NCBI GenBank assembly: GCA_964438875.1
Contig: CAYTMM010000005.1
Coordinates: forward strand, 14,968 to 78,967
Direction of reading: 5' to 3'
From: an uncultured Sphingosinicella sp.
Lineage (GTDB): Bacteria; Pseudomonadota; Alphaproteobacteria; Sphingomonadales; Sphingomonadaceae
Length of the DNA: 64,000 bases
This document shows, in pieces, positions 11,766-51,983 of the stretch (position 1 is its first letter; every line of letters begins with the position of its first letter). The notes under the pieces are model-generated. The model was not told where the DNA came from and searched no databases. It was given only the letters and a program-made list of their open reading frames with translations. The position numbers and the translations under genes are program-made.

Positions 11766-12517
11766 ACAAGCAGTCCCGCGAGGCACTCGACGCTTATTAT
11801 CGCGAGGCGGCAAGCTGGGGCCGCGACCGCGAAGATACGCTGAGGGCCTCGCGCCGGATCGCCTGGATCGTCGCCGGCATTGCGCTGCTGGTCGCGGTGT
11901 TGCTGGCGATCGCCCTGGTGGTGCTGATGCCGCTGAAACGGGTCGAGCCCTATACGATCCTGGTCGATCGCCAGACCGGGTTCGTGCAGGCGGTCGATCC
12001 GCTGCATCCCCAGCGGATCAGCGGCGATGCGGCGCTCACCCAGAGCTTCCTCGTCCAATATGTGATCGCGCGCGAAGGGTTCGACATCGCCGCGCTCCAG
12101 AGCAACTATCGCAAGGTCGCACTCTGGTCGGCCGAGAGCGCGCGCAGCTCCTATCTGGCGGGCATCCAGAACAGCAATCCGCAAAGTCCCCTCAACCTCT
12201 ACCCGCGCACCACCACGCTGGACGTGCGGGTGAAGAGCGTCTCGCCAGTCGCGGCCAATGTGGCGATGGTGCGGTTCGAGATCGTGCGCCGCGACATGAG
12301 CGGGCAGGCGCAGCCGGCCCAGCCGTTCGTCTCGATGATCCGCTATCATTATGCCGGCGAGCCGATGAGCGTCGAGGATAGGTTCATCAACCCCTTGGGG
12401 TTCCAGGTGCTGCGCTATCGGCGCGATCAGGAGGCATTGCCGGCGAATGCGGAAGAAGCGCCTGCACAGCCGCAGACCGCACCCCCGCCATCCGATCCCG
12501 CCGGGGTCAGGCAATGA
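11762..12517 (+). CDS. virB8: VirB8 family protein
   Basis: Single TM, PLKRVEPY, YVIAREG and NPLGFQVLRYR motifs. Confidence 0.92.
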   Translation: MNKQSREALDAYYREAASWGRDREDTLRASRRIAWIVAGIALLVAVLLAIALVVLMPLKRVEPYTILVDRQTGFVQAVDPLHPQRISGDAALTQSFLVQYVIAREGFDIAALQSNYRKVALWSAESARSSYLAGIQNSNPQSPLNLYPRTTTLDVRVKSVSPVAANVAMVRFEIVRRDMSGQAQPAQPFVSMIRYHYAGEPMSVEDRFINPLGFQVLRYRRDQEALPANAEEAPAQPQTAPPPSDPAGVRQ

Positions 12518-13209
12518 GGTCGCTCCTCCCCCTCCTGCTGCTCGGCGCCACTGTGCCGGCATTGGCGCAGATCGATCCGCGCCCTGGCGGCAGCGACCCA
12601 CGCATCCAAGTGATCGACTATCAAGACGACCAGGTGTTCCGCGTCCAGGCGGCACCGGGCTATCAGGTGACCCTGCAGCTCGGCCCCGACGAGCGGATCG
12701 AAAATGTCGCGGTCGGCGATGCCGGTGCCTGGCAGGTCGCCGCCAACGCTCGCGGCGATCTCCTGTTCGTCAAACCCTTGCGCGAAGGGGTGACCACCAA
12801 TCTCACCGTCGCCACGGACATCCGGCTTTACACGTTCGAGCTCGCCCCGCTTTACGACGGCGCGCCCAACATGGCCTACCGGATCCGGTTCAACTATCCC
12901 GCCGAGGCCGATGAGCGGCAAGAGCCCGAACAGGTCGCCGCGCTGGGTGATGGCCGCTACCGGCTGAGCGGCGCCCGTGCGCTGCGCCCCGCCGCGATCA
13001 GCGACGATGGCATGCGCACCTATATCGAATGGCCCGAAGACGCCGCATTGCCGGCGGTGTTCACGATCGACGCGCAGGGCCGTGAGGCTCTGGTCAACGG
13101 CAATATGCGTGGGCGGCTCTATGTGATCGATAGTGTGCCAGGCCGCCTGCTGTTCCGGATCGATCGCGGCGTCGCGCGCGCCGTGCGCATCACGCCGAGC
13201 GACTCCTGA
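12514..13209 (+). CDS. virB9: TrbG/VirB9 family protein
   Basis: Signal peptide, DPRIQVIDY, LFVKP, DDGMRTYIEWP and LPAVF motifs. Confidence 0.92.
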   Translation: MRSLLPLLLLGATVPALAQIDPRPGGSDPRIQVIDYQDDQVFRVQAAPGYQVTLQLGPDERIENVAVGDAGAWQVAANARGDLLFVKPLREGVTTNLTVATDIRLYTFELAPLYDGAPNMAYRIRFNYPAEADERQEPEQVAALGDGRYRLSGARALRPAAISDDGMRTYIEWPEDAALPAVFTIDAQGREALVNGNMRGRLYVIDSVPGRLLFRIDRGVARAVRITPSDS

Positions 13210-14324: not shown

Positions 14325-15307
14325 GCGCGGCTGCCACGGCTCCGGTTTACCTCAGCGCCTATCTGGCGCCGCTGGGCGACCTGCTCGAACGTCCCGACAT
14401 CACCGACATCTATATCAACGCGCCGCGCGAGGTATGGATCGAGACCATCAAGGGCGAGGTCGAGCGGCTGGAGGTGCCGGCGCTGGATGCGGCGATGCTT
14501 AGCCGGCTGGCGCGCCAGATCGCGGCGATATCGCATCAGGGGATCAGCCGGGAACACCCGCTGCTGTCCGCGACCCTGCCGGACGGCGGGCGCGTGCAGA
14601 TCGTGATCCCGCCCGCCACGCGCGGACATCTGGCGCTGGCGATCCGCAAGCATATCGCGCCGGAGCTGTCACTGGAGGATTATGTGGCGGCGGGTGCGTT
14701 CGACGAGACCCGGCGCGGGGAGCTTGGCACCGACGATGAGGGCAAGCGGCAGATCGCCGCCTTGCTCGCCGCTGGTGACATGGCGGGCGCGATGCGGCTT
14801 GCCGTACGCCAGCGGCGCAACATCCTGGTGTCCGGGGGTACATCGACCGGCAAGACGACGTTCCTCAATGCGCTGCTGCGCGAGGTGCCGGCCGAGGTAC
14901 GGCTGATCCTGATCGAGGACACGCCGGAGCTGAAGGCGCCCCACGCCAATATGGTGGGGCTGCTGGCGGCGCGCTCGGCATTGGGCGAGGCGCAGGTGAG
15001 TGCGGACGATCTGGTGGCGGCAAGCCTGCGCATGCGACCCGACCGGATCATCCTGGGCGAGTTGCGCGGCCCCGAGGCGTTCGCGTTCCTGCGCGCGGTC
15101 AATACCGGCCACCCCGGCTCGATGACCACGGTCCATGCCGATAGCGCAAGCCGAGCGATCGAGCAGATCGTGTTGCTGGTGCTCCAGGCCGGCACCCAGC
15201 TCAGCCGGGACGATGTGCGTCACTATGTGCGCTCGACCATCGATCTCTACGTGCAGCTGACTCGCGAGGGTGGGCGGCGGCGGGTGGCGGAGGTGATCTG
15301 CCCGTGA
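14321..15307 (+). CDS. virB11: VirB11 traffic ATPase
   Basis: Walker A GGTSTGKTT, IEDTPEL, LRMRPDRIILGELRG and NTGHPGSMTTVHA motifs. Confidence 0.95.
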   Translation: MSAAATAPVYLSAYLAPLGDLLERPDITDIYINAPREVWIETIKGEVERLEVPALDAAMLSRLARQIAAISHQGISREHPLLSATLPDGGRVQIVIPPATRGHLALAIRKHIAPELSLEDYVAAGAFDETRRGELGTDDEGKRQIAALLAAGDMAGAMRLAVRQRRNILVSGGTSTGKTTFLNALLREVPAEVRLILIEDTPELKAPHANMVGLLAARSALGEAQVSADDLVAASLRMRPDRIILGELRGPEAFAFLRAVNTGHPGSMTTVHADSASRAIEQIVLLVLQAGTQLSRDDVRHYVRSTIDLYVQLTREGGRRRVAEVICP

Positions 15308-15678
15308 TGGGGGCTGCGCCGATGCTCGCCGATCCGGGCGGGTCCAGCAGCCTGGTCGCAGCTTTGACCTGGGTGCAGGGGACGTTGCTGGGCACGGTCG
15401 CGACATTGGTGGCGGTGATCGCCATTGCGTCGATCGGGCTGCTGATGCTCGCCGGGCGCGTGGATGTGCGGCACGGCGTGCGGATGGTGCTAGGATGCTT
15501 CATCCTGTTCGGGGCGGCCACGATCGCGGCCGGGATACAGGCGGGGTTTACGGTGGGGATAGGATCGTCGCGGCCGGTGATGGCTGAGGCACCCGAGGCA
15601 TCACCGCCACCGGCTCTGCCCGAGATGCCACCCGCCAATTACGATCCCTATGCCGGGGCATCGGTGCCGATACGGTGA
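15304..15678 (+). CDS. virB2: Second TrbC/VirB2 family pilin with Pro-rich C-terminal tail
   Basis: WVQGTLLGTVATLVAVIAIASIGLLMLAGR...LGCFILFGA, a paralogue of 7594-7914; tail PEASPPPALPEMPPANYDPYAGASVPIR. Confidence 0.8.
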   Translation: MMGAAPMLADPGGSSSLVAALTWVQGTLLGTVATLVAVIAIASIGLLMLAGRVDVRHGVRMVLGCFILFGAATIAAGIQAGFTVGIGSSRPVMAEAPEASPPPALPEMPPANYDPYAGASVPIR

Positions 15679-16127
15679 TTTGAAAAGCACGATAACAGGG
15701 CTGCAAGACGGGCGTATAGCGGATTTGCGCCCATAGCGGCCGTCTAGCGCCGGATCTGCCAATCGCGAGAGCTGACGTCCACCGGGCACACGCGATTGAC
15801 CGACATGCGCCCATCCCGGTCGCCACCATCGCCGACTCTGGCGTCCGCTTCGCGGTTCATGCTGGACCTTCAGGCCAGCCGACGGCTTCAACAACGGCAG
15901 ACATTTCAAACTGCAGGACCGTCAATCGAGATGAGTCCGAGCTCCAAGCTATGTTGCTTCTGAACTCGCCTTACCCCGCCGTTAATTAGTAGTACGGAAA
16001 CACCTGATCTCACTCTTGCCCGTCAATTGACACTTTGCATTGTCAAGGTACTTGTGGAAGCATGTTCTATCCGAGCTGGAGTGGGAGACTTCGGGCGTTC
16101 GGCAACGTGGGGACCGGAACATTGACT

Positions 16128-17768
16128 GTGAAGAAGCCTGCGAGCGTCGGCAGTGTGTCGGTGAGGCTCATTCGGGCCGATAAGACGGTCGACACCGCCA
16201 TTCGGTCCGAGAACAAATTTCATGAGGTGCCATCTGAATCCGGCCACCTGTTTGTGGGTCAAAGTCCAAGCAACCCGCCGCCATGGACGAGCTTCGTCAG
16301 GGAGGCGGCCGGCACGACCGCAGACGTCGAGCTGCAAAACAAGAGCTGCGGCGCCATCCTCTTCCTCACGGCCGAGCGAGCAGGACGACCCGACCGCATC
16401 TTTGCGTTCACTTTCGGTACGGGGCATCTGGCGCTAGATCCCGATGCGATTGAGCGCGGATTCGGCCTCAAGGTAACATTGAACAAGGTGGAGCGGTCCA
16501 AGCTGAGGACGCTGGATGTGGCGAGCCTCGATGCCACCGTCATCCAGCGGCGGACCCAGGCGAGTCGAGATATCGACATCGACGAGTTCGGGATGAACAA
16601 GCATCAGGATCTACTGCGTCTCGCGGCTGGCACGCCCGATGACACGGGCCTGGCGCGCACATTGAGCGGACGCGACTCCCTAACCTTGAACCGGCGCTAT
16701 TCTGCGGCTGAGCTTCAGGCGCTTTGCGAGCGGTTGCTGGCCCTCTACGAGGGCAAGGAATATCAGAAGCACTATAAGTTCATCGACAATGTTCGGCCTG
16801 TCCAGGATAGGCTGCTGCTCTCGGAGCTCGACGGCCTCGCATTTGCGGAAATCAACGCGCTCATCAGCGGCCAAACGTCCGACCTGCATCTGTCACTGCC
16901 GGAGATCCTTGATCCATCGCGCAGCCTAGAGGTCAGCTATTTTGGTGCCACGCTCAAGCCAGGCCGCAAGAGCGTCTATCCGGATATCGACATTGCCGAT
17001 TATGTCGAGGTGCTGAGGCTCGGCAAGTTTGCCGACCTCACGCTCGATGCATGGCGCGCCACTCACGAAATCCGTTTCAGCGAAGCCGGCGAGACGGACC
17101 GGGAAAAGCAGCACAGGATCCACAATTGCATCGTCTGGGAGGCGGTCCACAACGGCATCACCTATGTCGCTTTCGGCGGCGAGTGGTTTGCAATTGATAA
17201 GCTCTTCTACGAGGAGATCGAGGAGGATTTCCAACGGCTGATTACAGCCACGCCGGTGGTCGCCTCGACGGCGGCCAAAAATGAGCAGGAGCTGCTAGTA
17301 GAGCTCGACGCGAGGCCTGACCTCCTGCTGATGGACAAAACTAAGACCAATCCGAAGGGCGCGCCGCGGGCCAATATCGAATTTTGCGACTTTCTCGGCT
17401 TTGACCGTAAACTCATCCATCTCAAGGATGGCCATGCCTCCACTTCGATCAGTCACCTCTGGAGTCAGGGCGTGGTCGGTAGCGAGAGCTTCCTCCGCGA
17501 CGAAGGATTCAGGCGGCATCTACTCAAGCATGTCCGCTCCCGCCAGAGGGACGCCAAGAAGTCGGGCTTCGATAGACTGCTGCCGACGCCGGCCAAGCGT
17601 CCAACGACGCGGGATTTCACCGTCGCCTATGGCATCATGCGGACGCCACTGAAGCGGTCCGGCAAGCTCGACATTCCCTTCTTCAGCAAGGTTAGCCTGC
17701 GGGCGGCCGCGCAGCGACTCGAGGATCTGGGGTTCAACGTTGAAATCCAATTGATCAAGATGACGTGA
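16128..17768 (+). CDS. TIGR04141/DUF6119-like sporadically distributed protein with C-terminal PD-(D/E)xK-like region
   Basis: FAFTFGTGH...IERGFGLKVTLN N-terminal motif; IEFCDF...LIHLK...SISHLWSQG...PFFSKVSL C-terminal motif. Start uncertain (16035-16128). Confidence 0.75.
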   Translation: MKKPASVGSVSVRLIRADKTVDTAIRSENKFHEVPSESGHLFVGQSPSNPPPWTSFVREAAGTTADVELQNKSCGAILFLTAERAGRPDRIFAFTFGTGHLALDPDAIERGFGLKVTLNKVERSKLRTLDVASLDATVIQRRTQASRDIDIDEFGMNKHQDLLRLAAGTPDDTGLARTLSGRDSLTLNRRYSAAELQALCERLLALYEGKEYQKHYKFIDNVRPVQDRLLLSELDGLAFAEINALISGQTSDLHLSLPEILDPSRSLEVSYFGATLKPGRKSVYPDIDIADYVEVLRLGKFADLTLDAWRATHEIRFSEAGETDREKQHRIHNCIVWEAVHNGITYVAFGGEWFAIDKLFYEEIEEDFQRLITATPVVASTAAKNEQELLVELDARPDLLLMDKTKTNPKGAPRANIEFCDFLGFDRKLIHLKDGHASTSISHLWSQGVVGSESFLRDEGFRRHLLKHVRSRQRDAKKSGFDRLLPTPAKRPTTRDFTVAYGIMRTPLKRSGKLDIPFFSKVSLRAAAQRLEDLGFNVEIQLIKMT

Positions 17769-17899
17769 GGAAAGGGGGCGCGCACTATCCGGCCGGCCGA
17801 AATCGCTAGTGTGCCAAGGCCCGCGTCGCGCCCGTCCCCGCCATCTGCTTCGTGCGATGCGAACGCCGGCAATTGGCCGATCGCGGCCAGTCGGCTCTC

Positions 17900-17914
17900 G
17901 AACAGACATAGAAC
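17900..17914 (+). promoter_or_regulatory. Alphaproteobacterial LexA (SOS) box
   Basis: GAAC-AGACATA-GAAC, a perfect GAAC-N7-GAAC, about 135 bp upstream of the 18049 gene. Confidence 0.7.
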
Positions 17915-18048
17915 AGGCATCTCACATCCCGGTCCATTTTCGCCGCCGATGATAACAAATCGTAACGATCCTATAGGTCTGGCCTTGGGTCATCGCTCTG
18001 CTCTACCTTTTCGGAAGCGGCAGCCGTTTCAACAGGGGGTGTGCAGCG

Positions 18049-18828
18049 ATGGACTCGCTCGGTGAATTGATTCCCGACAAATATGAACTGAACGCCCGGT
18101 TGCGGCCGGCGCTGCTCCTGCTGCTGCCGGCGATCGCGGTCGCAGCCGTCTGGATACCCGAACTTCGAACAATGGGCGGGGCGATCCTGACGCTCGCTGT
18201 CACCTGTGGCGTGACCTATTTTCTTTCCCAGGTCGCGCGCCGGCGTGGGCGCGCACTGGAAGACAGCTGGGGCGACGCGATCGGTCGGCGCCACTCCGCG
18301 CGCCTGCTTCGGCATGACGACGACACGATCCGCGCCAGCGTCAAGCAAAGGGTCGTTGACCTCGTCAGTGAGTTTGGTCCGGGCTTTCCCTCCCCGGCAG
18401 ACGAGGCCGCCGATTCCAATGCCGCGGAGGACCGGAGGATCGACGCGGTCGAATGGCTGCTCGAGGTGACGCGCGCTGACGCGCAGGCGTCGTTGCTGCT
18501 CGGCGAGAACATCGCCTACGGTTTTTCGCGCAATCTTCGCGGGCTGAAGCCGATCGGCTTGCCGGTGGCGATCATCGCGCTCGGCATTGATGCCTGGTTG
18601 CTATTCCAGACGGGCGCGGCTGGCGACAACCGCGCCGGCATTGCCGCCGGCTTTTTTTGCCTGATCTTCATTCTGGTCTGGCTGTTTCAGGTCACCCGCC
18701 GCCAGGTCGAGCAATATTCGCTCATCTATGCGCAGCGTCTCTTTGCCCAGGCCGACAATCCGGCGTTGCGCGCGCGTCTTGCCGAGGGGCGCGTTCCGCT
18801 GCCGAGCAAGAAACAGAAGGGCAAGTAG
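18049..18828 (+). CDS. Membrane protein of unknown family, about 4 hydrophobic segments (two N-terminal, two C-terminal)
   Basis: YELNARLRPALLLLLP, LLRHDD and LLGENIAYGFSRN motifs around a soluble middle domain. Confidence 0.75.
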   Translation: MDSLGELIPDKYELNARLRPALLLLLPAIAVAAVWIPELRTMGGAILTLAVTCGVTYFLSQVARRRGRALEDSWGDAIGRRHSARLLRHDDDTIRASVKQRVVDLVSEFGPGFPSPADEAADSNAAEDRRIDAVEWLLEVTRADAQASLLLGENIAYGFSRNLRGLKPIGLPVAIIALGIDAWLLFQTGAAGDNRAGIAAGFFCLIFILVWLFQVTRRQVEQYSLIYAQRLFAQADNPALRARLAEGRVPLPSKKQKGK

Positions 18829-18871
18829 GCGACTTCGCCGACCCCGTGCGGAATGCCCTGGCCGGGCGAGT

Positions 18872-19687
18872 TCACCAGGTTCGGTCGGTCATTACCTTCC
18901 AGCCGTACGGATCGCGGCTGAACTCGATCATCCCGTCACGCCGGGTGGTCAGCACGCGCCGGGTGCGGCCATCAATGCTGATGCCCCGCGCATGGGTGCC
19001 GTAGGTCCGCACCGTCTCCTGGGTGGCGTACTGGATGCCGGCGTCAGAGATCACGATGAGTTGCGGCGACAGGCCGGTCAGCCGGAACAGGGGCTCGAAA
19101 TAGCCGCTCTCGCGGCCATGGTGGGAGGCCATGAACACCTGCACCCGTCCGATCGCGGCGCGAAAGGCGCGGTCCTGGAGGAGTCGAAGCCATCCCGCCT
19201 TTTCGATGTCGCCGGGAAAGCAAATCGAGAAGTCATTCCATTCGAGGATGACGACCAGACTGAGGTTGTTCTCATCCCGGAAGTGGCGCGGAAAGTCGTT
19301 CCAGAAGCAATGGATGCTGAGGCCGTCGAACCAGGGCGCCGCTGCGCTGCCGCCGAGGCCTTGAAGCAAGCGGCTGAGCGCGAATATCCCCGGGCCGCAA
19401 TTATCCTGCCCCTTAAGGTTCAGCAGAGCGGCACCCGAGATCGTCGGGTTTGTGTAGACCCGCGCGACACTGGCGGCGGCGAGGACATTGGCAAGGTCGC
19501 TCGCATGATCTTCGTCCTCATTGGTGACGACGAGCGCGTCGAGATGTCCGATCCCGCGGTAACGCAGCATTTGCGAGGGACGCCAGCCTGTACTGCTGTT
19601 GTGGCCACAGTCGATCAGCATATGCTCGTTCGCATGTTCGACGAGGGCGCATTGCCCATGCTCGACATCGAAGATCTTGATCCTCAT
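18872..19687 (-). CDS. ComEC/Rec2-like metallo-beta-lactamase-fold hydrolase, variant motif
   Basis: FDVEHGQCA, LIDCG, TNEDEDH (in place of HxHxDH), FPGDIE and ASHHG motifs. Confidence 0.85.
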   Translation of the reverse strand: MRIKIFDVEHGQCALVEHANEHMLIDCGHNSSTGWRPSQMLRYRGIGHLDALVVTNEDEDHASDLANVLAAASVARVYTNPTISGAALLNLKGQDNCGPGIFALSRLLQGLGGSAAAPWFDGLSIHCFWNDFPRHFRDENNLSLVVILEWNDFSICFPGDIEKAGWLRLLQDRAFRAAIGRVQVFMASHHGRESGYFEPLFRLTGLSPQLIVISDAGIQYATQETVRTYGTHARGISIDGRTRRVLTTRRDGMIEFSRDPYGWKVMTDRTW

Positions 19688-19781
19688 GGTGCAGTTAATC
19701 TGGGGTCTGGCCCCGACGCTGAAAAGTGCGTCGCGGATGTTCAGTCTTGATCTCCCGGACGATGGCCGCGGATATCGCGCG

Positions 19782-20882
19782 ATGGCCGACAACAAGAACC
19801 AGCATTATGTGGCGCGCTGCCATTTGCGGCGGTTCAGCAAGGAGGGCGAAGGCCGCGCGATCAATCTGTTCAATCTCGACCGCCAGCGGGCGATTCCGGA
19901 CGCCCCTCTCAAGAACCAGTGTTCGGGCGATTATTTCTACGGTGACGACAAGCGCCTCGACGACGCTATCAGATTTGTCGAGGACAGCTACGGGTCGATG
20001 ATGACCGACCTGGCGGCCCCAGGCAGGATCATCACTCCGAAAGACAGGGTGATCCTGCAACGCTTCCTTCTGCTCCAGCATTTGCGGACCGAGGCGGCCT
20101 CGGAGCGGGCCGCAAAGAGGCTGTTCGCTATGCATGACCTGCCCGGAGGGGATGAGCAGCTCCCCCCGCTCAAGGAGGCGGTCCGCGGTGCGGTTATCTC
20201 GGCAATGCGCGTCTATGCCGAGACAATGCGCATCGTCGATGATCTCAAGCTTTGCGTGGTGCGCAACCGCAGCGCACTCGCCTTCGTGACATCCGACAAT
20301 CCCGCCATCTTGACCAACCGGCTCAATCTCCAACGCCCAAACATGAAAGGCCGCGGTTTTGGCGTGAGGCATGCCGGAACGCTGCTACTGATGCCGTTGT
20401 CGCCCTGGCTCTACTGCATTCTCTATGATGGCGACGTCTATACGATCGGCCATTCCGGCGGGTGGATCGACATTGAGGATGTTGCCGACATCGCTGCGCT
20501 CAACGACCATCAGTTTCTCGGCTGTGCCGCCAATATCTACTTCAGGGACTGGACCGACCGGACCGGCGTTGCCTCCGCCGCCCGCCAGGCCTGTTCACGG
20601 CGGCCGGAGCAGCGTCATCGCGCAATCCATGCGGTGCTCGACCAAGAAACCGAATGGGGCAAGCGTTATGCTGTCATCGAGCGGGATGCGATCAGGCCCG
20701 GCGACGAGGTGTTGATCCACATCATCGCCAATCAGCCGGTCCCGCTCGGCTGGCCGTCCTTCCTGCGCTACCGGGCCGATCGCAGGGCTTATTCCAACAA
20801 TAGCGGCACCGGACTTGTGCGGCGCTGGTGCCTCGACCAGGGATTTGTGTCGGGAGCGGGTTATCGACGGATAAGGCCGTGA
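19782..20882 (+). CDS. DUF4238 domain protein
   Basis: N-terminal NQHYVARCHLRRF, and FVTSDNP...LMPLSP motifs. Confidence 0.82.
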   Translation: MADNKNQHYVARCHLRRFSKEGEGRAINLFNLDRQRAIPDAPLKNQCSGDYFYGDDKRLDDAIRFVEDSYGSMMTDLAAPGRIITPKDRVILQRFLLLQHLRTEAASERAAKRLFAMHDLPGGDEQLPPLKEAVRGAVISAMRVYAETMRIVDDLKLCVVRNRSALAFVTSDNPAILTNRLNLQRPNMKGRGFGVRHAGTLLLMPLSPWLYCILYDGDVYTIGHSGGWIDIEDVADIAALNDHQFLGCAANIYFRDWTDRTGVASAARQACSRRPEQRHRAIHAVLDQETEWGKRYAVIERDAIRPGDEVLIHIIANQPVPLGWPSFLRYRADRRAYSNNSGTGLVRRWCLDQGFVSGAGYRRIRP

Positions 20883-20922
20883 ACTGATCGCCCTGCGCAA
20901 CGCCAGTGTCGTGACGTCCCAG

Positions 20923-23208
20923 TCAGGCTTCCGCCGCCGGATCGTCTTCCATCGTTCCCTTGAGCACCGCTTCGGCGACCAGCATCGAATAGCCGGCCGG
21001 CGTGTGGATCAGCAGCAGCGCCGGCACGAACTGGCGCAGCGCCAGGATCGCGCCCGCAATCGCGTCGGTCGACGAGGGACCGCTCGGGGCGAGGTGACTA
21101 TGCCAGGTGCCGACGACCTGCAGCGCGCCGCCGGTTTCCACGGCGACCTTGCGGGCCGCAGCCCGCAGCCCATTGCGGCCGAGGACGAACTCCTCGGCGC
21201 TGCGCGTGCTGTCCGGTGGCGCCGGCAGCAGATCGACGATCTGGAAACAATTTCCGATGTGCGAGAAGCGGCCGACCAGCACGCCACCGGTCTCGACGCC
21301 TGGGTATTTGGCAATGTCCTCTTCGATGGCAGCATCGACCCTGGGATGAAGACGAACGCCCGGTGTCTGTGGACCGAGGGGGGACACAACGGTCCAGGGT
21401 GCCTCCTCGACCAGCGACCAGGACAGGCCACCCAAGTCATCGGTCACGCCGATCCGGAGCTGTCCGGTCTGCGGCAGATTGTCGCACACCCAGTCGACAA
21501 TCGGGCGCGCCAGTGCGGCGCTGAGCATCGAGAGCTCACTGTCAGGCATGGGAAAGGTCGCGGCCGAACAGCCCTGGCCGATCACGATCGCTTCGGCCTC
21601 GGCGCCAGAGGCTAGTTTCGCGAGGTCGGAAACCTCGGCCAGGCGCCGATAAGCTTCAGCGGCGAGGTCGCTCAAATTGGGATTGGCGTTCGCCCCCTCC
21701 AGCGCGAGATAGCCTAGCCGTCCCGCGCCCATCAGACAGGCCTCGACCGCGCGCGGGCGACCGGCCCAGTCCACATGGGCGAGCGCTTCGCGGGTGACGA
21801 TGCTCGCGGTGGTGTCGACGATCAGCGCCGTGCCAGGCGGGGCGAGTCTGCTTCGTCCCTCGTCGTCGGCGAGGAGGGTTATGGCATCGGCATTGACCGC
21901 GGCCGCCGTCTGGGCGAGCTTTTCGACCTGACCCGCGCTGACATCTGCCTTGGCGCGAAGGAACATGCGGTCGGCAGTGCCGAGCGGAAGCGCGGCATGC
22001 CGCGCATAATTGTGTGCATCGAGATTGCTGCGATCGACGAGGACCGCTGGCGCGCGGCCGGCACGCGCCGCGTGCAGCACGATTTTCGAGCCGACGCTGC
22101 CGCAGCCGATCATCGTCCACGGCCGCGTCGGCAGGCTGGACGTGTCCCGCGATGTTCGCCGGAGCAGGGTCGGATTGATCGTCTCACGATGCGCGGCCAG
22201 GCGGACTTTCGTTTCCGGGTCGGCGAAATCCTGGCCGGGCGCGGCCTCGATCAGATAGGGACAGATCTCGATCGGGCTGTCGGTGCCGATCAGATTATAG
22301 GGTCGTCGGGCGAGAAGGATGACCGCGATCGGCACAGGATCGGCGGGAGGGTCGGCGGCCAGCGCATCGCGCAAGGACGTCAGCGCGGCGCTCAGTTCCG
22401 TGCTGCAACCGTAGAGCGCAGCACGATCCAGGAGGTCGCCGACATTCTCCACCGTCTCCGGGAGATAGAGCGATGCCCCGGGCGCGCCGGTCGATCCGGC
22501 CCATACCAACAGACCAAGGCCGGCTCCGCTCGGTGTCCCTTCATCTTTGTCACGGCGTAGCACCTTGCCAAGATAAGGCCCGATTTCGACCGATTCGCTG
22601 CCGAGGAAGAGCTTGTAGAGGTCTGACTTTTCGTAGTGGAGATAGGTCGCGACTACGAACGCGGTTCCGCCTCCAGGCGTCACCATCGCCTGCGCACGGG
22701 GGGCGTTGATCACGACGATGTCGTCGATCGAATCGCGCCGCACCGGCTCCCAGCCATGGGCCGGGTCATTGAGTTCAAGCGCCGCAGCGCGCTCCAGCCA
22801 GAGAACGAGCTGCTCGATGAGGCCAATGAAACCACGCGCCTGGATCACCTCGCGCGGACTGCCCAATACGAGGCAGGGGCGAACCGGCTTGCTCTCCTTG
22901 TCCGGCTGGATGTGCGGATGGTACCGCGGGAAATCCGAGCGCAGCGCGATGTAGGGCGTGATCAGCGGGAAATTGTCGCTGAACGCGAAATTCACCGTCT
23001 CGAACTTGCGCACACCGAACGGGCTCTCACCGGCTGCACGCCACGCGGCCGGCAGCTCGGTGCGGATGGTGACCTCGGCGAAGGTCAAATCCTCCTGCCG
23101 CTTCCTAATCGTAACGGCCGTAACGGAGGGATGTGCCTGGGCCTGGCGCAAAGCGCGCGAAACCGCCACCGGCATGCCCGGTGGCGGCGGCGTCTCCTCG
23201 TCGCTCAC
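20923..23208 (-). CDS. Prokaryotic E2-E1(ThiF)-JAB fusion protein (6A-MBL-type)
   Basis: E2: FP...P...LRSDFP..HPHI...PCL. E1: GCGSVG, DRSNLDAHNYARH, GQGC. JAB: ETGGVLVG...GTWHSH...PSSTD. GTGA overlap with the upstream MBL gene. Confidence 0.9.
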   Translation of the reverse strand: MSDEETPPPPGMPVAVSRALRQAQAHPSVTAVTIRKRQEDLTFAEVTIRTELPAAWRAAGESPFGVRKFETVNFAFSDNFPLITPYIALRSDFPRYHPHIQPDKESKPVRPCLVLGSPREVIQARGFIGLIEQLVLWLERAAALELNDPAHGWEPVRRDSIDDIVVINAPRAQAMVTPGGGTAFVVATYLHYEKSDLYKLFLGSESVEIGPYLGKVLRRDKDEGTPSGAGLGLLVWAGSTGAPGASLYLPETVENVGDLLDRAALYGCSTELSAALTSLRDALAADPPADPVPIAVILLARRPYNLIGTDSPIEICPYLIEAAPGQDFADPETKVRLAAHRETINPTLLRRTSRDTSSLPTRPWTMIGCGSVGSKIVLHAARAGRAPAVLVDRSNLDAHNYARHAALPLGTADRMFLRAKADVSAGQVEKLAQTAAAVNADAITLLADDEGRSRLAPPGTALIVDTTASIVTREALAHVDWAGRPRAVEACLMGAGRLGYLALEGANANPNLSDLAAEAYRRLAEVSDLAKLASGAEAEAIVIGQGCSAATFPMPDSELSMLSAALARPIVDWVCDNLPQTGQLRIGVTDDLGGLSWSLVEEAPWTVVSPLGPQTPGVRLHPRVDAAIEEDIAKYPGVETGGVLVGRFSHIGNCFQIVDLLPAPPDSTRSAEEFVLGRNGLRAAARKVAVETGGALQVVGTWHSHLAPSGPSSTDAIAGAILALRQFVPALLLIHTPAGYSMLVAEAVLKGTMEDDPAAEA

Positions 23209-24347
23209 CCGTGCGCCAGCGCTTCGGTGCCGATCCCGGTGCTGGCGGCCGCAGCGGCGGCCAGCGGGGTGCGCACGAACTTCGTGCCCTTGCTGCCGAT
23301 CTCGAGGGTCAAAGGCTGATCGTCATCGCCATCGGCTACGCAGCGAAACTCGCCGCCGACCTCCTCGACGATCTCTTCATATTCGCGCTTCGCGCGAATG
23401 CAGGGCGGGTCATTGTCGTCATCGTCGATTGCGCAGGAGCTGGCGACGACGATCGCGCCGGAGCGCGCCTGCGACAGTGCGCTGCGCGCGTCGGACGACA
23501 CCTCGGCATCCTCGCCTTTCTCCGACCAGCTGTCCCAGGACAGGCTGTGCCAGGAGCAGTGATGAGGCGCGATCAGCACATCATATTCGAGATTGCCTGG
23601 CTCGTCCTCATGCGCGGCCCAGAGCCGCTCCCAGATCGCAACTTCGGCGTCGCCGCCGAATAGGTAGCGCGCCGCATCGTCATTGCCGTCGGCAGCGAGC
23701 GTCAGGTGGACGATCACGCTCGAGTTGTTCTTGCTGAGAACCTCTTCCTCTTCCTCGTTCGCCGGCGGCAGGGGCGCCAGCAGGAGCGCCGAGAAGCTAT
23801 CGTCCTCAATCCCGTCGATCGTCGAGAAGCGTTCGCCCGTGCAGACCAGAATCCCGTCGAGATCGTCGGTCTTGTCGTCGATATCCTCGCCCAGCACGAG
23901 GATCCTGTCGCCGTCGTCGAGCGAGCCCTGCTCACGGTAGAGCGCGACGCGCCGGCGCGCCTCACAGCCCCAGGCATGGGCATCGTTACACAATTTGTTT
24001 CCCGCAGACCGACGACGGAAGATCATCGGTGATGACCACATCTCGCGGATGATGATCTTGTCGTCATCCTCTTCCCAGTCATCGAGCGGACCGAGATGAA
24101 AATGGGTCTCGAGGCCCCGAATATGATCGGCATCGGGATGGGTCAGCAAGAACGCATCGACGAAGAGCCTTCCTTCCGCATCGCGCTCCAGCAGATCGCG
24201 GAGCTGCGCGGCGACGTCCGGCGTGTCATCGTCCTCATCGTCGGCGGCACATCGGATGTTGATGTCGAAGAGAATTCGCCGGCCGCTTTCAAGTTCGACC
24301 AGAGCCATATCGCCATTGTCGACCCGAAAATGATACGTCTTCACCAT
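23205..24347 (-). CDS. Acidic metallo-beta-lactamase-fold hydrolase, partner of the E2-E1-JAB fusion
   Basis: FRVDNGDM, LFDIN, THPDADH, FGGDAE and APHHCSW motifs; flexible tail ending in Gly (…GTEALAHG). Confidence 0.88.
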   Translation of the reverse strand: MVKTYHFRVDNGDMALVELESGRRILFDINIRCAADDEDDDTPDVAAQLRDLLERDAEGRLFVDAFLLTHPDADHIRGLETHFHLGPLDDWEEDDDKIIIREMWSSPMIFRRRSAGNKLCNDAHAWGCEARRRVALYREQGSLDDGDRILVLGEDIDDKTDDLDGILVCTGERFSTIDGIEDDSFSALLLAPLPPANEEEEEVLSKNNSSVIVHLTLAADGNDDAARYLFGGDAEVAIWERLWAAHEDEPGNLEYDVLIAPHHCSWHSLSWDSWSEKGEDAEVSSDARSALSQARSGAIVVASSCAIDDDDNDPPCIRAKREYEEIVEEVGGEFRCVADGDDDQPLTLEIGSKGTKFVRTPLAAAAAASTGIGTEALAHG

Positions 24348-24679
24348 AGCAGTCGCCTCGTCTGGACGGATGGTAAGTAGGAACCAAGAAAGACGTTACA
24401 AGACCGAAACAACTCATAGGGCGCGCTTTTACGGATGCTTGTGCGGGTGGTGCGCTTCCGCAAAAAAGACGGGTGGTTACCGAGCCCGAAGTTGTGTTCA
24501 TACCAACCATCGAAGCAACCATGTAGCTTCCTGAATTGAAGGCCATATCGGCCACTGCATTGCCCCGACGGTGGCTGTTCGCGGTCGCTAGTCCGTCGAC
24601 GGGACCGGTAGTGCGCAGAAAAGGTCGATTTGTCGGTGAGATCGCAGCATTCTCGCCGATTCGTACCATGCGAATATGA

Positions 24680-24694
24680 GAACAAACATAGAAC
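24680..24694. promoter_or_regulatory. Alphaproteobacterial LexA (SOS) box
   Basis: GAAC-AAACATA-GAAC, 14/15 identical to the box at 17900; about 330 bp upstream of the MBL start on the minus strand. Confidence 0.7.
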
Positions 24695-24862
24695 GAAAAG
24701 TCAACCGGCAATCGTTTCCTGACGACCTTAGCCTTACCAGGAGGACTCGGCCCGTGGCGGCTTTCGAGCATCCGCAGGTATCTCTTGAGCGGCCGACATG
24801 GGTGCATCCCGGAAAACAGCGCGAGCATCGCGGGATGTCCGGATTTACTTGATCTCCACTCC

Positions 24863-24886
24863 AGAGCGGACATTCTGCTTCCGGCC
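24863..24886. repeat. 24-bp junction repeat J1
   Basis: AGAGCGGAC-ATT-CTGCT-TC-CGGCC, 3 bp from the autotransporter stop; same pattern at 30344 and 32884. Confidence 0.55.
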
Positions 24887-24889
24887 AAT

Positions 24890-27800
24890 TCAGAATCCGA
24901 TCCGGACCCCTGCATTGGCTCTCAGGTTGGTGCTGTCGGCCAAATCCGAAAAGGGGCTATCGATCGCGGCCTCTCCGTAGAAGGTGACGCCATTTGACAA
25001 GCGAACGCTGGCACCGATGCCCAGTTCGCCCGACACCCGGTGGTCGGCGCGCACGATCGGCGTTCCCGCCACTTCGGTCCGGCTGCCGCCCAGCCATTCG
25101 ACGTTGACGTTGGCGATTGCATAGATGTGAGTTGCGATATCCCCCGAAGCGACGCGCCGGTCGACGGAGAGTCCCGTTCGCGAGCGCAGGCTGTCGCCGT
25201 CGGCGATCGAGATGTTGGCTCCCGAAGGATCAACGAAGGCGTCGAAGCGAACATTGCCGTAGAGGAGCTGGGCTTGCGGCGTCAGACTCCAGACTGAACC
25301 CAGGGGGATAATGTGGCCGACTTCAAGGCTGAACGCTTCGCCGGAGCCATCATTGCTGCGCACGAGTTCACCCAAAATGTCGGATCGCAGATTGCTGTCA
25401 TACCAGCTGAACTGGGCCTGCGCGTCGGCATAGAAGCCCCGAATGTCCCGCCATGTCAGCGAGAGGCCGAAGCCATAGCCGTTGGTGTCCATCCGTCCGT
25501 CTCCGAACACGGATTTCGTGCGGGCCCGAGCCTCGCCATAATGGCCAGAAATGCCGGCGACCAACTGATTGCCGCCGGGCGCGCCAACCAATGCACGATC
25601 GACGCCGATCTGGATGCGCCAGGCATCGATCCTTTGATCTGCTGCGCTGGTGGAACGTCTTGGTTCCGCGTTTTGGCGGAGACCTTCGAGGCGGCCCCAG
25701 ATGTCATTCCGGCCCGGTGTCAAGCTGCGTCCGGCGACGCGCTGCTGCAGCGTCGGCAAACCGTTCAGCGATTGCAGCACCGCGCCATAGCCCTCATAGA
25801 CCGGAACGCCCGGCTGATAGAGCGGCACAGGGGGCGTGGGCGCTGCCGGATCAATCAAAGCGGAGCGCAAATACCAGTCTCCATCGGACGGATCGGTCAC
25901 GCCATTCTGGACAAGCCGATAGGCATAGGCCCCGGCGATGATCGCTTGCTCTCCCTCGAACAGATAATCGCCGTTCAGGACGAAAATACCGTCGGAAGCC
26001 CCCGCAACTTCGATGATGCGGATGCCCTCCACAGTCTGGGCGCCGATCCCGTTTCGATTGACCACGGTGACCCTGCTGGTGCCGGAAGTGGCGCCGCCGA
26101 TGACGAGCCGGTCGGTCGTCGAACTGTCCCCGCCCAATATCGTCTCGATCTCGATGGTGCCGCCATTGCCGACATAGTCGCCCGTCACCGTCAGCGTGCC
26201 GAAGCCCGCATTTCCGGGAGCCACGACGCCGGCATTCGCCGCACTGCCCAGCGTGCCATCGCCTTCCAGGCGTCCGCTGGCGCTGACGATGACATTGCTG
26301 CCCAGTGTACCCGTCAGTGCGAGGGTGCCCGCTTCCACCGTCACCGGACCTGCGAAGGCGACATTGTCGCCGGACAATTGCAGGACGCCGCCGCCACTTT
26401 TGCCAAGCGGCCCGTTGCCGGAGACGAGTCCGTCGAACGAAAATGTCGTTCCCTCGGCAGTTTCGATCGCGCCCCCCGCCAGCACGCGCAAATCGCGCGA
26501 CGACGAGAAGCTGGCAGTCGTGCGCAGCACTCCGCCGTCAAGGTCGACGTCGCCGCCCGCATCGCCCAGATTGGCATCCGCCGTAATCTGGAGCGTGCCG
26601 GCGCCAATGACCGTTCCCCCTGTGTAGGTGTTGGCGCCGCTGAGAATGGTCACGCCGGGTCCGTCCTGACGAACCGCGCCGCTGCCGGAGATCACGCCCG
26701 CGAACGCGAAGCTGTCGGACCGATTGAATGCGAGTACGCCATCGTTTGCGACGTTGCCCGTGATCGCGCCGACGGTTCCGCCATCGCCGATCTGGAGGCT
26801 GCCGCCCGTTATCGTTGTCCCGCCTGCATAGGTGTTCGCGCCCGTAAGAACGAGCGTGCCGCTGCCGGCCTGACGCAGCCCACCCGTTCCTGAGACCGCC
26901 CCGTCAAAGGCGATATCGTCGGAGCGTTCGAATACCAGTGTGCCATTGTTCGAAACATCGCCGACGATCGATCCTGTTGTGCCGCCATTGCCGATTTGCA
27001 AAACGCCTGCAGCAATCGTCGTTCCCCCGGCATAGCTGCCGGTTCCGGTAAGGATCAGTGTGCCGGCTCCGAATTTCTCGAGAGAACCAGCCCCCGAGAG
27101 ACTACCGCCGAGGTTCAGCGAGGTTGCGGCATCCGTATCGACTCTTCCCGCAGAGAGCAGATTGACCGCGCGCGCCGAGGCAAAGCTCGCAGTGGAGTTC
27201 AGTGTGCCGCCATCGAATGTGAGGCTTCCCGCCGTATCGCCCAGACTGGCATCATCGGATATACGCAGCGTTCCTGCGCCGATGATCGTCCCGCCGGTAT
27301 AGCTGTTGGCGCCGGTCAGGATCAACGTGCCGAGATCGGTCTTGTTCAAAGCCGCGGCACCGGTCACTTCGGCATCGATCGTGGCGGTAACGCCCGCGCC
27401 GTTCGCCGTGCCGTCGCCAACGCGGATATCGGCGACCGCGCCGACCAGCGTGAGGGCATCTCCATTCAGCACATAACCATCGGTCGCGATCTGGAGCCCC
27501 GATGCCGTCACCGCGCCATTATTATTGGCGATATCGACCGTCCCGGCCGTGCCCTGGAATATCGCGAAACTGCCATTGGCATAGTCCGCGTTCACTTCTC
27601 CGTTGATCTCGGTCCAATGGTTCTCGCCACCGCCGAGCCGCCAGATGCCGTTCCCACCCGTGACATTCCTGTCATTGGCGGTGCCTGACGGCCCGTCCCA
27701 GACGTTGAGCGTGAGCCCGGCGGTGTTGACGAGGTTGATCTGCTGGGCGATCGACGTCTGGACGAACAGATCGCTGCCCGCCGGCGCAGCGCCGATCGAC

Positions 27801-48862: not shown

Positions 48863-48908
48863 TTGACGCCCCGTGCGGGCGCGATTACCACAAGAACAAA
48901 TCTGGAAC
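48863..48908 (+). promoter_or_regulatory. uvrA promoter with LexA box
   Basis: -35 TTGACG at 48863; GAAC-AAATCTG-GAAC at 48894-48908, 10 bp before the ATG. Confidence 0.85.
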
Positions 48909-48918
48909 AGAGAGCTTC

Positions 48919-51983
<3,065 letters not shown>

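What the first reader, a model, noticed from the sequence alone, without database searches (positions are those of the whole stretch)
17900..24694. Near-identical LexA boxes at both ends of the defence-like cluster: SOS-inducible immunity?
Seen: GAACAGACATAGAAC (17900) precedes the membrane-protein gene (+), and GAACAAACATAGAAC (24680) precedes the MBL/E2-E1-JAB operon (-). Both match GAAC-N7-GAAC, like the box in front of uvrA (48894). Established: this is the alphaproteobacterial LexA motif. Inference: inward-facing SOS-controlled promoters couple this ubiquitin-like defence locus to DNA damage. The 24680 box could instead serve a short plus-strand ORF (AGGAGG then GTG at about 24753, 32 aa).
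Basis: partly seen in the sequence, partly recalled or inferred. Interest (0 to 1): 0.7.

Follow-up and report, generated by a model that had tools for sequence, protein, structure and literature searches.

The report
LexA boxes flanking ubiquitin-like defence locus
Both DNA-damage (LexA) boxes are real: the right-hand one belongs to a conserved SOS promoter borrowed from a now-decayed mobile-element gene and most likely still drives the MBL/E2-E1-JAB operon, while the left-hand one is an unconserved, unproven match.

Summary
Observation confirmed; interpretation partly supported. GAAC-N7-GAAC is the working LexA motif in this Sphingomonadaceae genome: AT-rich intergenic copies precede lexA, recA, uvrA, imuA, recJ/dinB, nrdA and radA.

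**Box 2 (24680).** It is the operator of a conserved promoter, TTGAC-N5-GTTC-N7-GTTC-TCAT-N6-ATG. That promoter serves a roughly 80-aa, apparently leaderless small gene of sphingomonad conjugative elements. The same layout occurs in 19 of 19 loci with that region available.
- In the window the small gene has decayed (GC3 0.46, indels).
- All 20 functional promoter and operator positions are kept, although neutral sites are only 62% identical to the closest relative.
- In that relative the intact small gene sits 93 nt before the same MBL→E2-E1-JAB operon.
- SOS-driven transcription of MBL/E2-E1-JAB is therefore likely (about 0.65).

**Box 1 (17900).** It lies 134 nt before the membrane-protein gene, which is the system's third gene in orthologous operons and is split off here. 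The box is statistically plausible, but it is absent from the closest relative and has no promoter context (about 0.5).

**Other orthologues.** More distant 6a-MBL loci lack LexA boxes. Two lineages instead carry an M78-peptidase gene beside the operon (with an XRE partner in G113), the CapH/CapP layout.

The plus-strand 32-aa ORF and an att-site reading are rejected. No expression data could be obtained.

The parts
17900..17914 (+). Box 1, GAACAGACATAGAAC: a candidate LexA operator 134 nt upstream of the membrane-protein gene.
   Evidence: Exact match. It is intergenic with 5 of 7 A/T in the spacer, a class enriched about 7-fold over simulation. PWM score 13.7 bits, rank 54. It is not conserved: the flanks match nothing in 250 family genomes, and no box stands before the TM gene in the closest relative L186. 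No promoter was found around it.
18049..18828 (+). Gene for a 259-aa membrane protein with four predicted TM segments. It is the third component of the 6a-MBL system, here split off and inverted.
   Evidence: Homologues directly follow E2-E1-JAB in the same operon in G493 (46% identity, overlapping stop/start) and in the Bradyrhizobiaceae loci. In L186 it is 83% identical and in the same split position.
18872..19687 (-). Second MBL-fold gene (PADLOC PDC-M48B).
   Evidence: PDLC04674, 8.6e-85. A homologue lies next to the system in G113 as well and in L186 (89% identity).
19782..20882 (+). DUF4238 gene, convergent with E2-E1-JAB.
   Evidence: PF14022, 7.5e-33. It holds the same position in L186 (77% identity).
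20923..23208 (-). E2 (Prok-E2_A) - E1 (ThiF) - JAB triple-module protein, 761 aa.
   Evidence: Pfam and PADLOC hits. This is the '6a' architecture of Iyer et al. 2006.
23205..24347 (-). Specialised MBL protein of 380 aa ending in ...ALAHG. It overlaps the E2-E1-JAB start by 4 nt.
   Evidence: Orthologues are 55-89% identical. The C-terminal [AP]L[AI]HG is conserved in 6 of 6 orthologues read.
24440..24669 (-). Decayed remnant of the ~80-aa SOS small gene. It starts MVRIGEN, and the frame stays open to 24289.
   Evidence: The N-terminal 44 aa are homologous to intact copies (tblastn 2.6e-5). GC3 is 0.46, against 0.77-0.78 for neighbouring genes and for the intact copy on contig C48. It is 57% identical with 29 gap columns to the intact gene of L186.
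24667..24705 (-). SOS promoter of the small gene, in minus-strand order: -35 TTGAC (24704-24700), operator (24694-24680), TCAT (24679-24676), ATG (24669-24667). There is no Shine-Dalgarno sequence, so the mRNA is probably leaderless.
   Evidence: The same layout occurs in 19 of 19 loci. The DNA match is confined to 24653-24708 in two family genomes. All 20 functional positions are identical to L186, while 4-fold degenerate sites are 62.5% identical.
24680..24694 (-). Box 2. It reads GTTCTATGTTTGTTC on the functional (minus) strand and is the LexA operator between -35 and -10.
   Evidence: PWM score 18.3 bits, rank 22 genome-wide, beside recA at 19.5.
48894..48908 (+). LexA box of uvrA (positive control inside the window).
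   Evidence: It lies 10 nt before the UvrA start at 48919.
24820..24832 (-). Terminator-like hairpin after the autotransporter gene. It insulates the SOS promoter from upstream transcription and overlaps the proposed plus-strand 32-aa ORF.

Best explanation
**Box 2 (shown).** Box 2 is the LexA operator of a conserved promoter of conjugative elements (ICEs). This promoter originally expressed a leaderless ~80-aa SOS gene. In this lineage the 6a-type MBL -> E2-E1-JAB operon lies directly downstream on the same strand.

**The window copy (shown).** The small gene has decayed to a non-coding 5' leader, but the -35 element, the operator, the -10-like TCAT and the start codon are all preserved.

**Mechanism (inferred).** LexA bound between -35 and -10 keeps the promoter shut. 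RecA-stimulated LexA cleavage after DNA damage opens it. A transcript starting at about 24669 then runs through the ~320-nt remnant, which holds no recognisable terminator, into MBL and E2-E1-JAB.

**Box 1 (probable only).** It is probably a second, independent LexA site in front of the system's third gene. That membrane-protein gene is split off and inverted here, so both transcription units may be SOS-co-regulated. Box 1 rests on motif statistics alone.

**Scope.** The LexA link is a lineage-specific rewiring. Other 6a-MBL loci use different regulators, in two lineages with an M78 peptidase gene (plus an XRE gene in G113).
For: - The motif is valid in this genome: boxes precede lexA, recA, uvrA, imuA, recJ/dinB, nrdA, radA and others. 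It matches the published alphaproteobacterial GTTCN7GTTC box.
- AT-rich intergenic boxes number 13 observed against 1.75 expected.
- The box 2 promoter is conserved in 16 of 16 full-length small-gene loci from 15 other family genomes plus the own contig C48, and in G499, G579 and the window.
- The closest relative (L108, L186-188) has an intact 82-aa small gene 93 nt before MBL. It has the same MBL (89%), E2-E1-JAB (83%), DUF4238 (77%), M48B (89%) and TM (83%) arrangement and one LexA box at the same place.
- The window's small ORF has decayed: GC3 0.46, 57% identity and 29 gap columns.
- Yet 20 of 20 functional promoter positions are kept, against 62.5% identity at 4-fold sites. The chance of this is 0.625^20, about 1e-4.
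- No terminator or significant structure lies in the leader, and no consensus promoter lies nearer MBL.
- The TM gene is the third gene of the operon in orthologues.
- Orthologous operons in G113 and the Bradyrhizobiaceae carry an M78 peptidase gene next to them, with an XRE partner in G113. This is the layout of the DNA-damage-responsive CapH/CapP regulators, so damage-induced expression suits this system class.
Against:
- Read-through across 320 nt is assumed, and Rho-dependent termination cannot be excluded.
- A 20-nt block conserved with L186 about 50-70 nt before the MBL ATG could be an independent promoter.
- Box 1 is absent in the closest relative. It is 134 nt from the ATG, farther than any of the 12 training sites, and has a low PWM score.
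- About 13% of boxes of its class are expected to be chance matches.
- Ten genome-derived orthologous loci lack boxes.
Confidence: 0.6

Rival explanations
1. Box 2 is only a relic. The SOS promoter fires into a dead leader and terminates there, for instance through Rho. MBL/E2-E1-JAB would then be expressed from its own promoter within about 100 nt of its ATG, and box 1 would be a chance match. The locus would not be SOS-controlled.
For: Orthologous operons have their own short upstream regions of 120-190 nt without LexA boxes. A 20-nt block just upstream of MBL is conserved between the window and L186. Box 1 is not conserved. About 1.75 chance boxes of this class are expected per genome.
Against: A relic promoter should have decayed like its ORF. 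Instead, 20 of 20 functional positions are intact while the ORF is 57% identical with many indels. No terminator is seen, and no conserved promoter is shared with other orthologues.
Confidence: 0.27
2. Box 2 controls the short plus-strand ORF (GTG at 24754, 32 aa), or another plus-strand transcript.
For: An AGGAGG lies 8 nt before the GTG, and the frame is open for 32 codons.
Against: In 19 loci the box is fixed between a -35 TTGAC and an ATG that both read on the minus strand. Conservation with G499 and G579 stops at about 24708, before the ORF. L186 has unrelated sequence there (51% identity). The ORF overlaps the autotransporter's terminator-like hairpin.
Confidence: 0.03
3. The two near-identical 15-mers are direct repeats (att sites or a target duplication) left by insertion of the 6.8-kb cluster. 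They would not be regulatory sites.
For: The two are 14 of 15 identical, in direct orientation, and bracket the cluster.
Against: Similarity stops exactly at the 15 bp. Both native flanks of the promoter (-35 and ATG) sit at box 2, so nothing was split there. There is no integrase inside. In L186 the same cluster has only one box and ends at a tRNA-Gly. Spacer identity of 6 of 7 is common among LexA boxes of this genome.
Confidence: 0.03
4. Both boxes are chance occurrences in a GC-rich genome.
For: The bare pattern is no more frequent than expected.
Against: Box 2 is conserved in 19 loci. The AT-rich intergenic class is about 7-fold enriched and marks the core SOS genes.
Confidence: 0.02

Closest known systems
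Alphaproteobacterial SOS operators (Caulobacter GTTCN7GTTC direct repeat; da Rocha et al. 2008, as cited in PMC9578287 and PMC12700426)
   Same: Same tetranucleotide direct repeat with a 7-nt spacer. Box 2 lies between -35 and -10, the classical repressing position. The same motif precedes lexA, recA, uvrA and imuA in this genome.
   Different: The target is not a repair gene. It is a small gene of a mobile element and, downstream of it, a ubiquitin-like conjugation operon. Box 1 has no promoter context.
CapH/CapP (also CapW and CapK/CapS) DNA-damage-responsive regulators of anti-phage operons (10.1101/2022.04.27.489752; PMC11662680; PMC13373217)
   Same: Expression of an immune operon would be switched on by DNA damage. 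Orthologous 6a-MBL operons in G113 and the Bradyrhizobiaceae have an M78 peptidase gene beside them, paired with an XRE gene in G113.
   Different: The window has no dedicated regulator pair. Control would come from the host's global LexA through a captured promoter.
Operon type 6a of Iyer, Burroughs and Aravind 2006 (PMC1779556), called the 'MBL pathway' and related to type II CBASS Cap2/Cap3 (PMC11601596)
   Same: An E2-E1-JAB triple-module protein sits next to a specialised MBL. The MBL ends in a conserved C-terminal Gly, like the CD-NTase tail conjugated by Cap2.
   Different: This is an extended locus with a membrane protein, a second MBL (PDC-M48B) and DUF4238. The membrane gene is split from the operon. 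No function has been shown experimentally for this type.
SOS-inducible conjugative elements such as SXT/R391 (SetR autocleavage; from my own knowledge, not checked here)
   Same: ICE genes, and cargo next to them, are switched on by DNA damage.
   Different: Here the host LexA binds the element's promoters directly. Three boxes per element occur in L103-L105: before the coupling-protein/relaxase operon, before the small gene, and at the S24 repressor gene.

Membership tests
Alphaproteobacterial LexA operator | GAAC/GTTC direct repeat with an exactly 7-nt spacer | tested here: met
   Both boxes are exact matches.
Alphaproteobacterial LexA operator | The motif marks the core SOS genes of the same genome | tested here: met
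   lexA (two boxes), recA, uvrA, imuA, recJ/dinB, nrdA, radA and others. lexA operators are present in 29 of 30 family genomes.
Alphaproteobacterial LexA operator | Position overlapping a promoter (-35/-10) | tested here: inconclusive
   Box 2: met. It lies between the conserved TTGAC and TCAT, 10 nt before the ATG. Box 1: no promoter recognised.
Alphaproteobacterial LexA operator | Conservation at orthologous promoters | tested here: inconclusive
   Box 2: met, 19 of 19 small-gene loci plus L186-188. Box 1: not met.
Alphaproteobacterial LexA operator | LexA binding and damage induction | not testable with these tools
6a / MBL ubiquitin-like conjugation pathway | [quoted passage not shown] | tested here: met
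   PF14457 at 5.5e-25. PF00899 (ThiF, 20.5 bits) and PF14464 (Prok-JAB, 22.6 bits) fall below Pfam's cut-offs but are backed by PADLOC E1-E2 and JAB models.
6a / MBL ubiquitin-like conjugation pathway | Adjacent specialised metallo-beta-lactamase-fold gene | tested here: met
   The gene at 23205-24347 overlaps the E2-E1-JAB start. Orthologues were found.
6a / MBL ubiquitin-like conjugation pathway | Anti-phage activity, and conjugation of the MBL via its C-terminal Gly | not testable with these tools
   Only the conserved ...LAHG tail was seen. The literature treats the pathway as immune by analogy.
CapH/CapP-type regulator pair | An XRE-HTH gene plus an M78 (ImmA/IrrE) peptidase gene adjacent to the operon | tested here: not met
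   None is present in window 15000-25000. A pair is present in orthologue G113 (HTH_3 + Peptidase_M78). An M78 gene lies near the Bradyrhizobiaceae loci.
Beta-clamp-binding proteins (for the small SOS protein) | QL[SD]LF-like pentapeptide in a flexible region (consensus recalled from my own knowledge) | tested here: inconclusive
   Q67-x-x-L70-F71 is nearly invariant in a low-pLDDT tail and is kept in divergent members, including a QLSLF. Binding was not tested.

The most novel reading that the evidence does not exclude
The SOS promoter of the ICE small gene stands at the edge of the element's cargo region. It would act as a ready-made LexA-controlled driver for whatever defence operon lands behind it.

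In this lineage it has been fully taken over by a 6a-type MBL/E2-E1-JAB conjugation system, and the original gene was discarded. A second LexA box has then arisen in front of the split-off membrane component. The two halves of an uncharacterised ubiquitin-like immune system would thus be co-induced by the host SOS response.

This would be the first case of direct LexA control of such a system. It would also give a simple inducing condition for studying it.
Probability: 0.3. Interest if true: 0.6.

Novelty: new variant of a known kind. Interest (0 to 1): 0.5.

Why it matters
Damage-induced expression of anti-phage operons is known through dedicated regulators (CapH/CapP, CapW, CapK/CapS). Direct control by the host's LexA, gained by capturing a mobile-element promoter, would be another route to the same end.

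It would also give a practical handle for switching on the still uncharacterised 6a 'MBL' ubiquitin-like pathway, namely mitomycin C or UV.

The work also uncovers a small, unannotated, LexA-controlled gene family of sphingomonad conjugative elements. Its members carry a clamp-binding-like QxxLF tail. These elements carry three LexA boxes each, which suggests that host SOS directly licenses their transfer genes.

Tried and rejected
- Rfam on 15500-25500 found no family.
- Consensus promoter and terminator scans around both boxes found nothing useful, apart from a hairpin after the autotransporter gene.
- The RNA fold of the 331-nt leader is not better than shuffles (z = -0.45).
- A DNA search with the box 1 intergenic region in 250 family genomes gave only short GC-rich noise, none covering the box. 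The own genome gave nothing either.
- Box 1 flanks show no similarity to the three LexA-controlled ICE promoters.
- No promoter is shared among the MBL upstream regions of orthologues.
- The small protein has no Pfam, NCBIfam or PDB sequence match, and no Foldseek match with E below 1.
- Genes downstream of the small gene in other loci are heterogeneous: toxin-antitoxin genes, a primase-like gene and others. The small gene is therefore not generally the first gene of a fixed operon.
- The att-site reading and the plus-strand-ORF reading were rejected (see rival explanations).
- L116 and L118 carry a 'box' at -30 that overlaps the MBL start codon. L166 carries a GC-rich box. Both were judged chance matches.
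- The record behind L108 is not held for the genome search.
Full report
**1. Observation**

- Box 1 (17900-17914) lies between the stop of a DUF6119 gene (17768) and the ATG (18049) of a 259-aa membrane protein.
- Box 2 (24680-24694) lies between the ATG of the MBL gene (24347, minus strand) and the stop of a 1735-aa autotransporter gene (24890, minus strand).
- The box at 48894 is 10 nt before UvrA.

The gene content was confirmed by Pfam and PADLOC:

| Coordinates | Strand | Gene |
|---|---|---|
| 16035-17768 | + | DUF6119 |
| 18049-18828 | + | Membrane protein |
| 18872-19687 | - | MBL fold, PDC-M48B |
| 19782-20882 | + | DUF4238 |
| 20923-23208 | - | Prok-E2_A / ThiF / JAB fusion |
| 23205-24347 | - | MBL |

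**2. Is the motif meaningful in this genome?**

The window lies in a 3.28-Mb, 65% GC assembly. Names attached to homologues place it in the Sphingomonadaceae.

The bare pattern GAAC-N7-GAAC occurs 58 times, no more than base composition predicts. The copies fall into two classes.
- GC-rich-spacer copies lie inside genes.
- AT-rich-spacer copies lie in intergenic DNA.

The AT-rich intergenic copies stand directly before lexA (two overlapping boxes), recA, uvrA, imuA, recJ/dinB, nrdA, a PA0069-type radical SAM gene, an S24 repressor-like gene, pdeM, rmuC and radA.

In second-order Markov simulations of the intergenic DNA, 1.75 +/- 1.5 boxes with at least 5 of 7 A/T spacer positions are expected, and 13 are seen. 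One of these later proved intragenic.

The motif is the published alphaproteobacterial SOS box. lexA operators in 29 of 30 family genomes show that spacers vary widely, including C at spacer position 4 and occasional G at position 2, as in the two boxes.

A PWM built from 12 own-genome sites ranks box 2 22nd genome-wide (18.3 bits; recA scores 19.5). It ranks box 1 54th (13.7 bits).

**3. What box 2 really is**

A DNA search with the 542-bp intergenic region in 300 genomes of the order matched only positions 24653-24708, in two family members. In both, the box lies 10 nt before the ATG of an ~80-aa gene on the opposite strand.

A protein search for that gene in 250 family genomes found it in 15 of them, and on contig C48 of the window's own genome. 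All 16 full-length copies carry the box at -25.

The aligned promoters of 19 loci, including the window, read TTGAC-N5/6-GTTC-N7-GTTC-TCAT-N6/7-ATG, with no Shine-Dalgarno sequence. This is an operator between -35 and -10 of a probably leaderless mRNA. The leaderless start is an inference.

The protein has no Pfam, NCBIfam, PDB or Foldseek relative. Sources call it 'hypothetical protein'. It forms a small family of 67 clusters at 50% identity in 1.8 billion representatives.

In intact elements it follows the TrwC relaxase gene and faces a block that ends with an S24 repressor gene. Those elements carry three LexA boxes: before the coupling-protein/relaxase operon, before the small gene, and at the S24 gene.

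**4. The window's copy is a relic with a living promoter**

- The window's frame starting at 24669 (MVRIGEN...) is homologous to the family only over about 44 residues, and with frame disturbances.
- Its GC3 is 0.46. MBL, E2-E1-JAB, the membrane gene and the intact C48 copy have 0.77-0.78.
- A metagenome scan with an MBL alignment found a close relative, L108. Its larger records L186-L188 were then fetched.
- The relative's locus runs: trb type IV secretion operon, then divergently the SOS promoter, an intact 82-aa small gene, a 93-nt gap, MBL (89% aa identity), E2-E1-JAB (83%), DUF4238 (77%, opposite strand), PDC-M48B MBL (89%), the membrane protein (83%, opposite strand) and a tRNA-Gly.
- The order small gene -> MBL -> E2-E1-JAB behind one LexA-controlled promoter therefore predates the split of the two lineages.

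Identity between the window and L186, by segment:

| Segment | Identity |
|---|---|
| Upstream of -35 | 51% |
| Promoter (ungapped; 70%'s gapped alignment) | 74% |
| Small ORF | 57%, with 29 gap columns |
| Gap before MBL | 70% |
| MBL | 84% |
| E2-E1-JAB | 80% |
| 4-fold degenerate sites of MBL | 62.5% |

All 20 positions of TTGAC, GTTC, GTTC, TCAT and ATG are identical, whereas the other 19 promoter positions are 47% identical. At the neutral rate, 20 of 20 has a probability of about 1e-4.

A promoter kept under selection after its own gene has decayed is most simply explained by its use for the genes downstream. No terminator, significant RNA structure or consensus promoter lies between it and MBL. 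Read-through itself is inferred, not shown.

**5. Box 1**

The membrane protein is a genuine part of the system. In G493 (same family) its homologue overlaps the stop of E2-E1-JAB. In five Bradyrhizobiaceae loci, and in L107, it follows directly. In the window and in L186 it is separated from the operon and on the other strand, so it needs its own promoter.

- For box 1: it is an exact match of the enriched class. The chance of such a box in this particular 280-bp spacer is below 1e-3, or about 0.03 allowing for a scan of all intergenic DNA in the window (my calculation from composition).
- Against box 1: L186 has unrelated DNA and no box before its membrane gene. The flanks match nothing elsewhere. 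No promoter is recognisable. At 134 nt from the ATG, the distance exceeds that of all 12 training sites.
- The 14 of 15 identity to box 2 does not extend by a single base. Spacer identity of 6 of 7 is common among this genome's boxes.
- I put its being a functional LexA site at about 0.5.

**6. Orthologous loci**

- No GAAC-N7-GAAC box stands before MBL in G113, G270, G493 or the six Bradyrhizobiaceae loci.
- Among 78 metagenomic loci with enough upstream sequence, only L108 and L107 have an AT-rich box.
- L108 carries the window's own arrangement.
- In L107 the box sits 11 nt before the ATG of a divergent 133-aa gene.
- LexA control is therefore not a family trait of this system.
- G113 has a divergent HTH_3 + Peptidase_M78 pair, and the Bradyrhizobiaceae loci have an M78 gene upstream. 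This is the layout of the CapH/CapP damage-responsive regulators of immune operons.
- Damage-induced expression thus seems to suit this system class, reached here by another route.

**7. What the system is**

It is operon type 6a of Iyer et al. 2006, referred to as the 'MBL pathway' and related to type II CBASS. The MBL ends in [AP]L[AI]HG in all six orthologues read. This fits conjugation through the C-terminal Gly by analogy with Cap2 and the CD-NTase. That is an inference, also noted earlier by the scan.

**8. Rejected readings**

- Plus-strand 32-aa ORF: the conserved elements all read on the minus strand, conservation ends before the ORF, and the ORF overlaps the autotransporter's terminator-like hairpin.
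- Att sites or a duplication: similarity is only 15 bp, both native flanks are at box 2, and the relative has one box and ends at a tRNA.

**9. Limits**

My gene calls for the genome-wide statistics are crude (ORF length plus GC3).

**Verdict**

| Claim | Probability |
|---|---|
| Box 2 is a real, conserved LexA operator | ~0.95 |
| Box 2 controls MBL/E2-E1-JAB | ~0.65 |
| Box 1 is a functional LexA site | ~0.5 |

This would be a new variant of a known theme.

Noticed in passing
window 24440-24669 (-); intact copies at G000:C48:12960-13205 (-) and L186:9659-9907: An unannotated ~80-aa gene family of Sphingomonadaceae conjugative elements, always behind a LexA operator and apparently leaderless. 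The C-terminal tail carries a nearly invariant Q-x-x-L-F (one member has QLSLF), which resembles the beta-clamp-binding motif. AlphaFold gives three helices plus a disordered tail. It has no known relatives.
   Followed up: partly
L103-L105 (positions 2157, 7976, 9942): The ICEs that carry the intact small gene have three LexA boxes. One stands before the coupling-protein/TrwC relaxase operon, with TTGACA inside the spacer. One stands before the small gene, and one lies between the S24 repressor gene and a divergent 78-aa gene. This suggests direct host-LexA control of transfer genes.
   Followed up: partly
L028 (G113) 11275-12581; L033 4021-4785: Orthologous MBL/E2-E1-JAB operons are flanked by a divergent XRE-HTH + Peptidase_M78 pair in G113, or by an M78 peptidase gene in the Bradyrhizobiaceae MAGs. 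This is the CapH/CapP-like layout.
   Followed up: partly
window 18049-18828 versus L062 10647-11414 and L033-L037: The four-TM protein is the third gene of the 6a-MBL operon in several lineages, overlapping the E2-E1-JAB stop in G493. In the window and in L186 it is split off and inverted, with DUF4238 and a second MBL in between.
   Followed up: yes
window 23205-23240 (C-terminus of MBL): The C-terminal ...[AP]L[AI]HG-stop is conserved in all six MBL orthologues read, consistent with a conjugatable Gly tail.
   Followed up: partly
L186 16587-16661: In the closest relative the extended locus is the last cargo of a trb-type ICE and abuts a tRNA-Gly(GCC), the likely attachment site. The window has a DUF6119 gene and a VirB-type T4SS at that end instead.
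   Followed up: no
window 17949-18065 (+): A 38-codon ORF (MITNRNDPIG...) starts 34 nt after box 1 and overlaps the membrane gene start out of frame. It has no Shine-Dalgarno sequence and no counterpart in L186, so it is probably not a gene.
   Followed up: no
G000:C4:58216 (L020 917-931): A LexA box lies 5 nt before a 145-aa GFA-family (glutathione-dependent formaldehyde-activating-like) gene next to hslU. This is an unusual candidate SOS gene.
   Followed up: no
L107 2279-2706: Another 6a-MBL locus (60% identity) has a LexA box 11 nt before the ATG of a divergent 133-aa gene of unknown family, 309 nt from MBL. Bidirectional control was not assessed.
   Followed up: no
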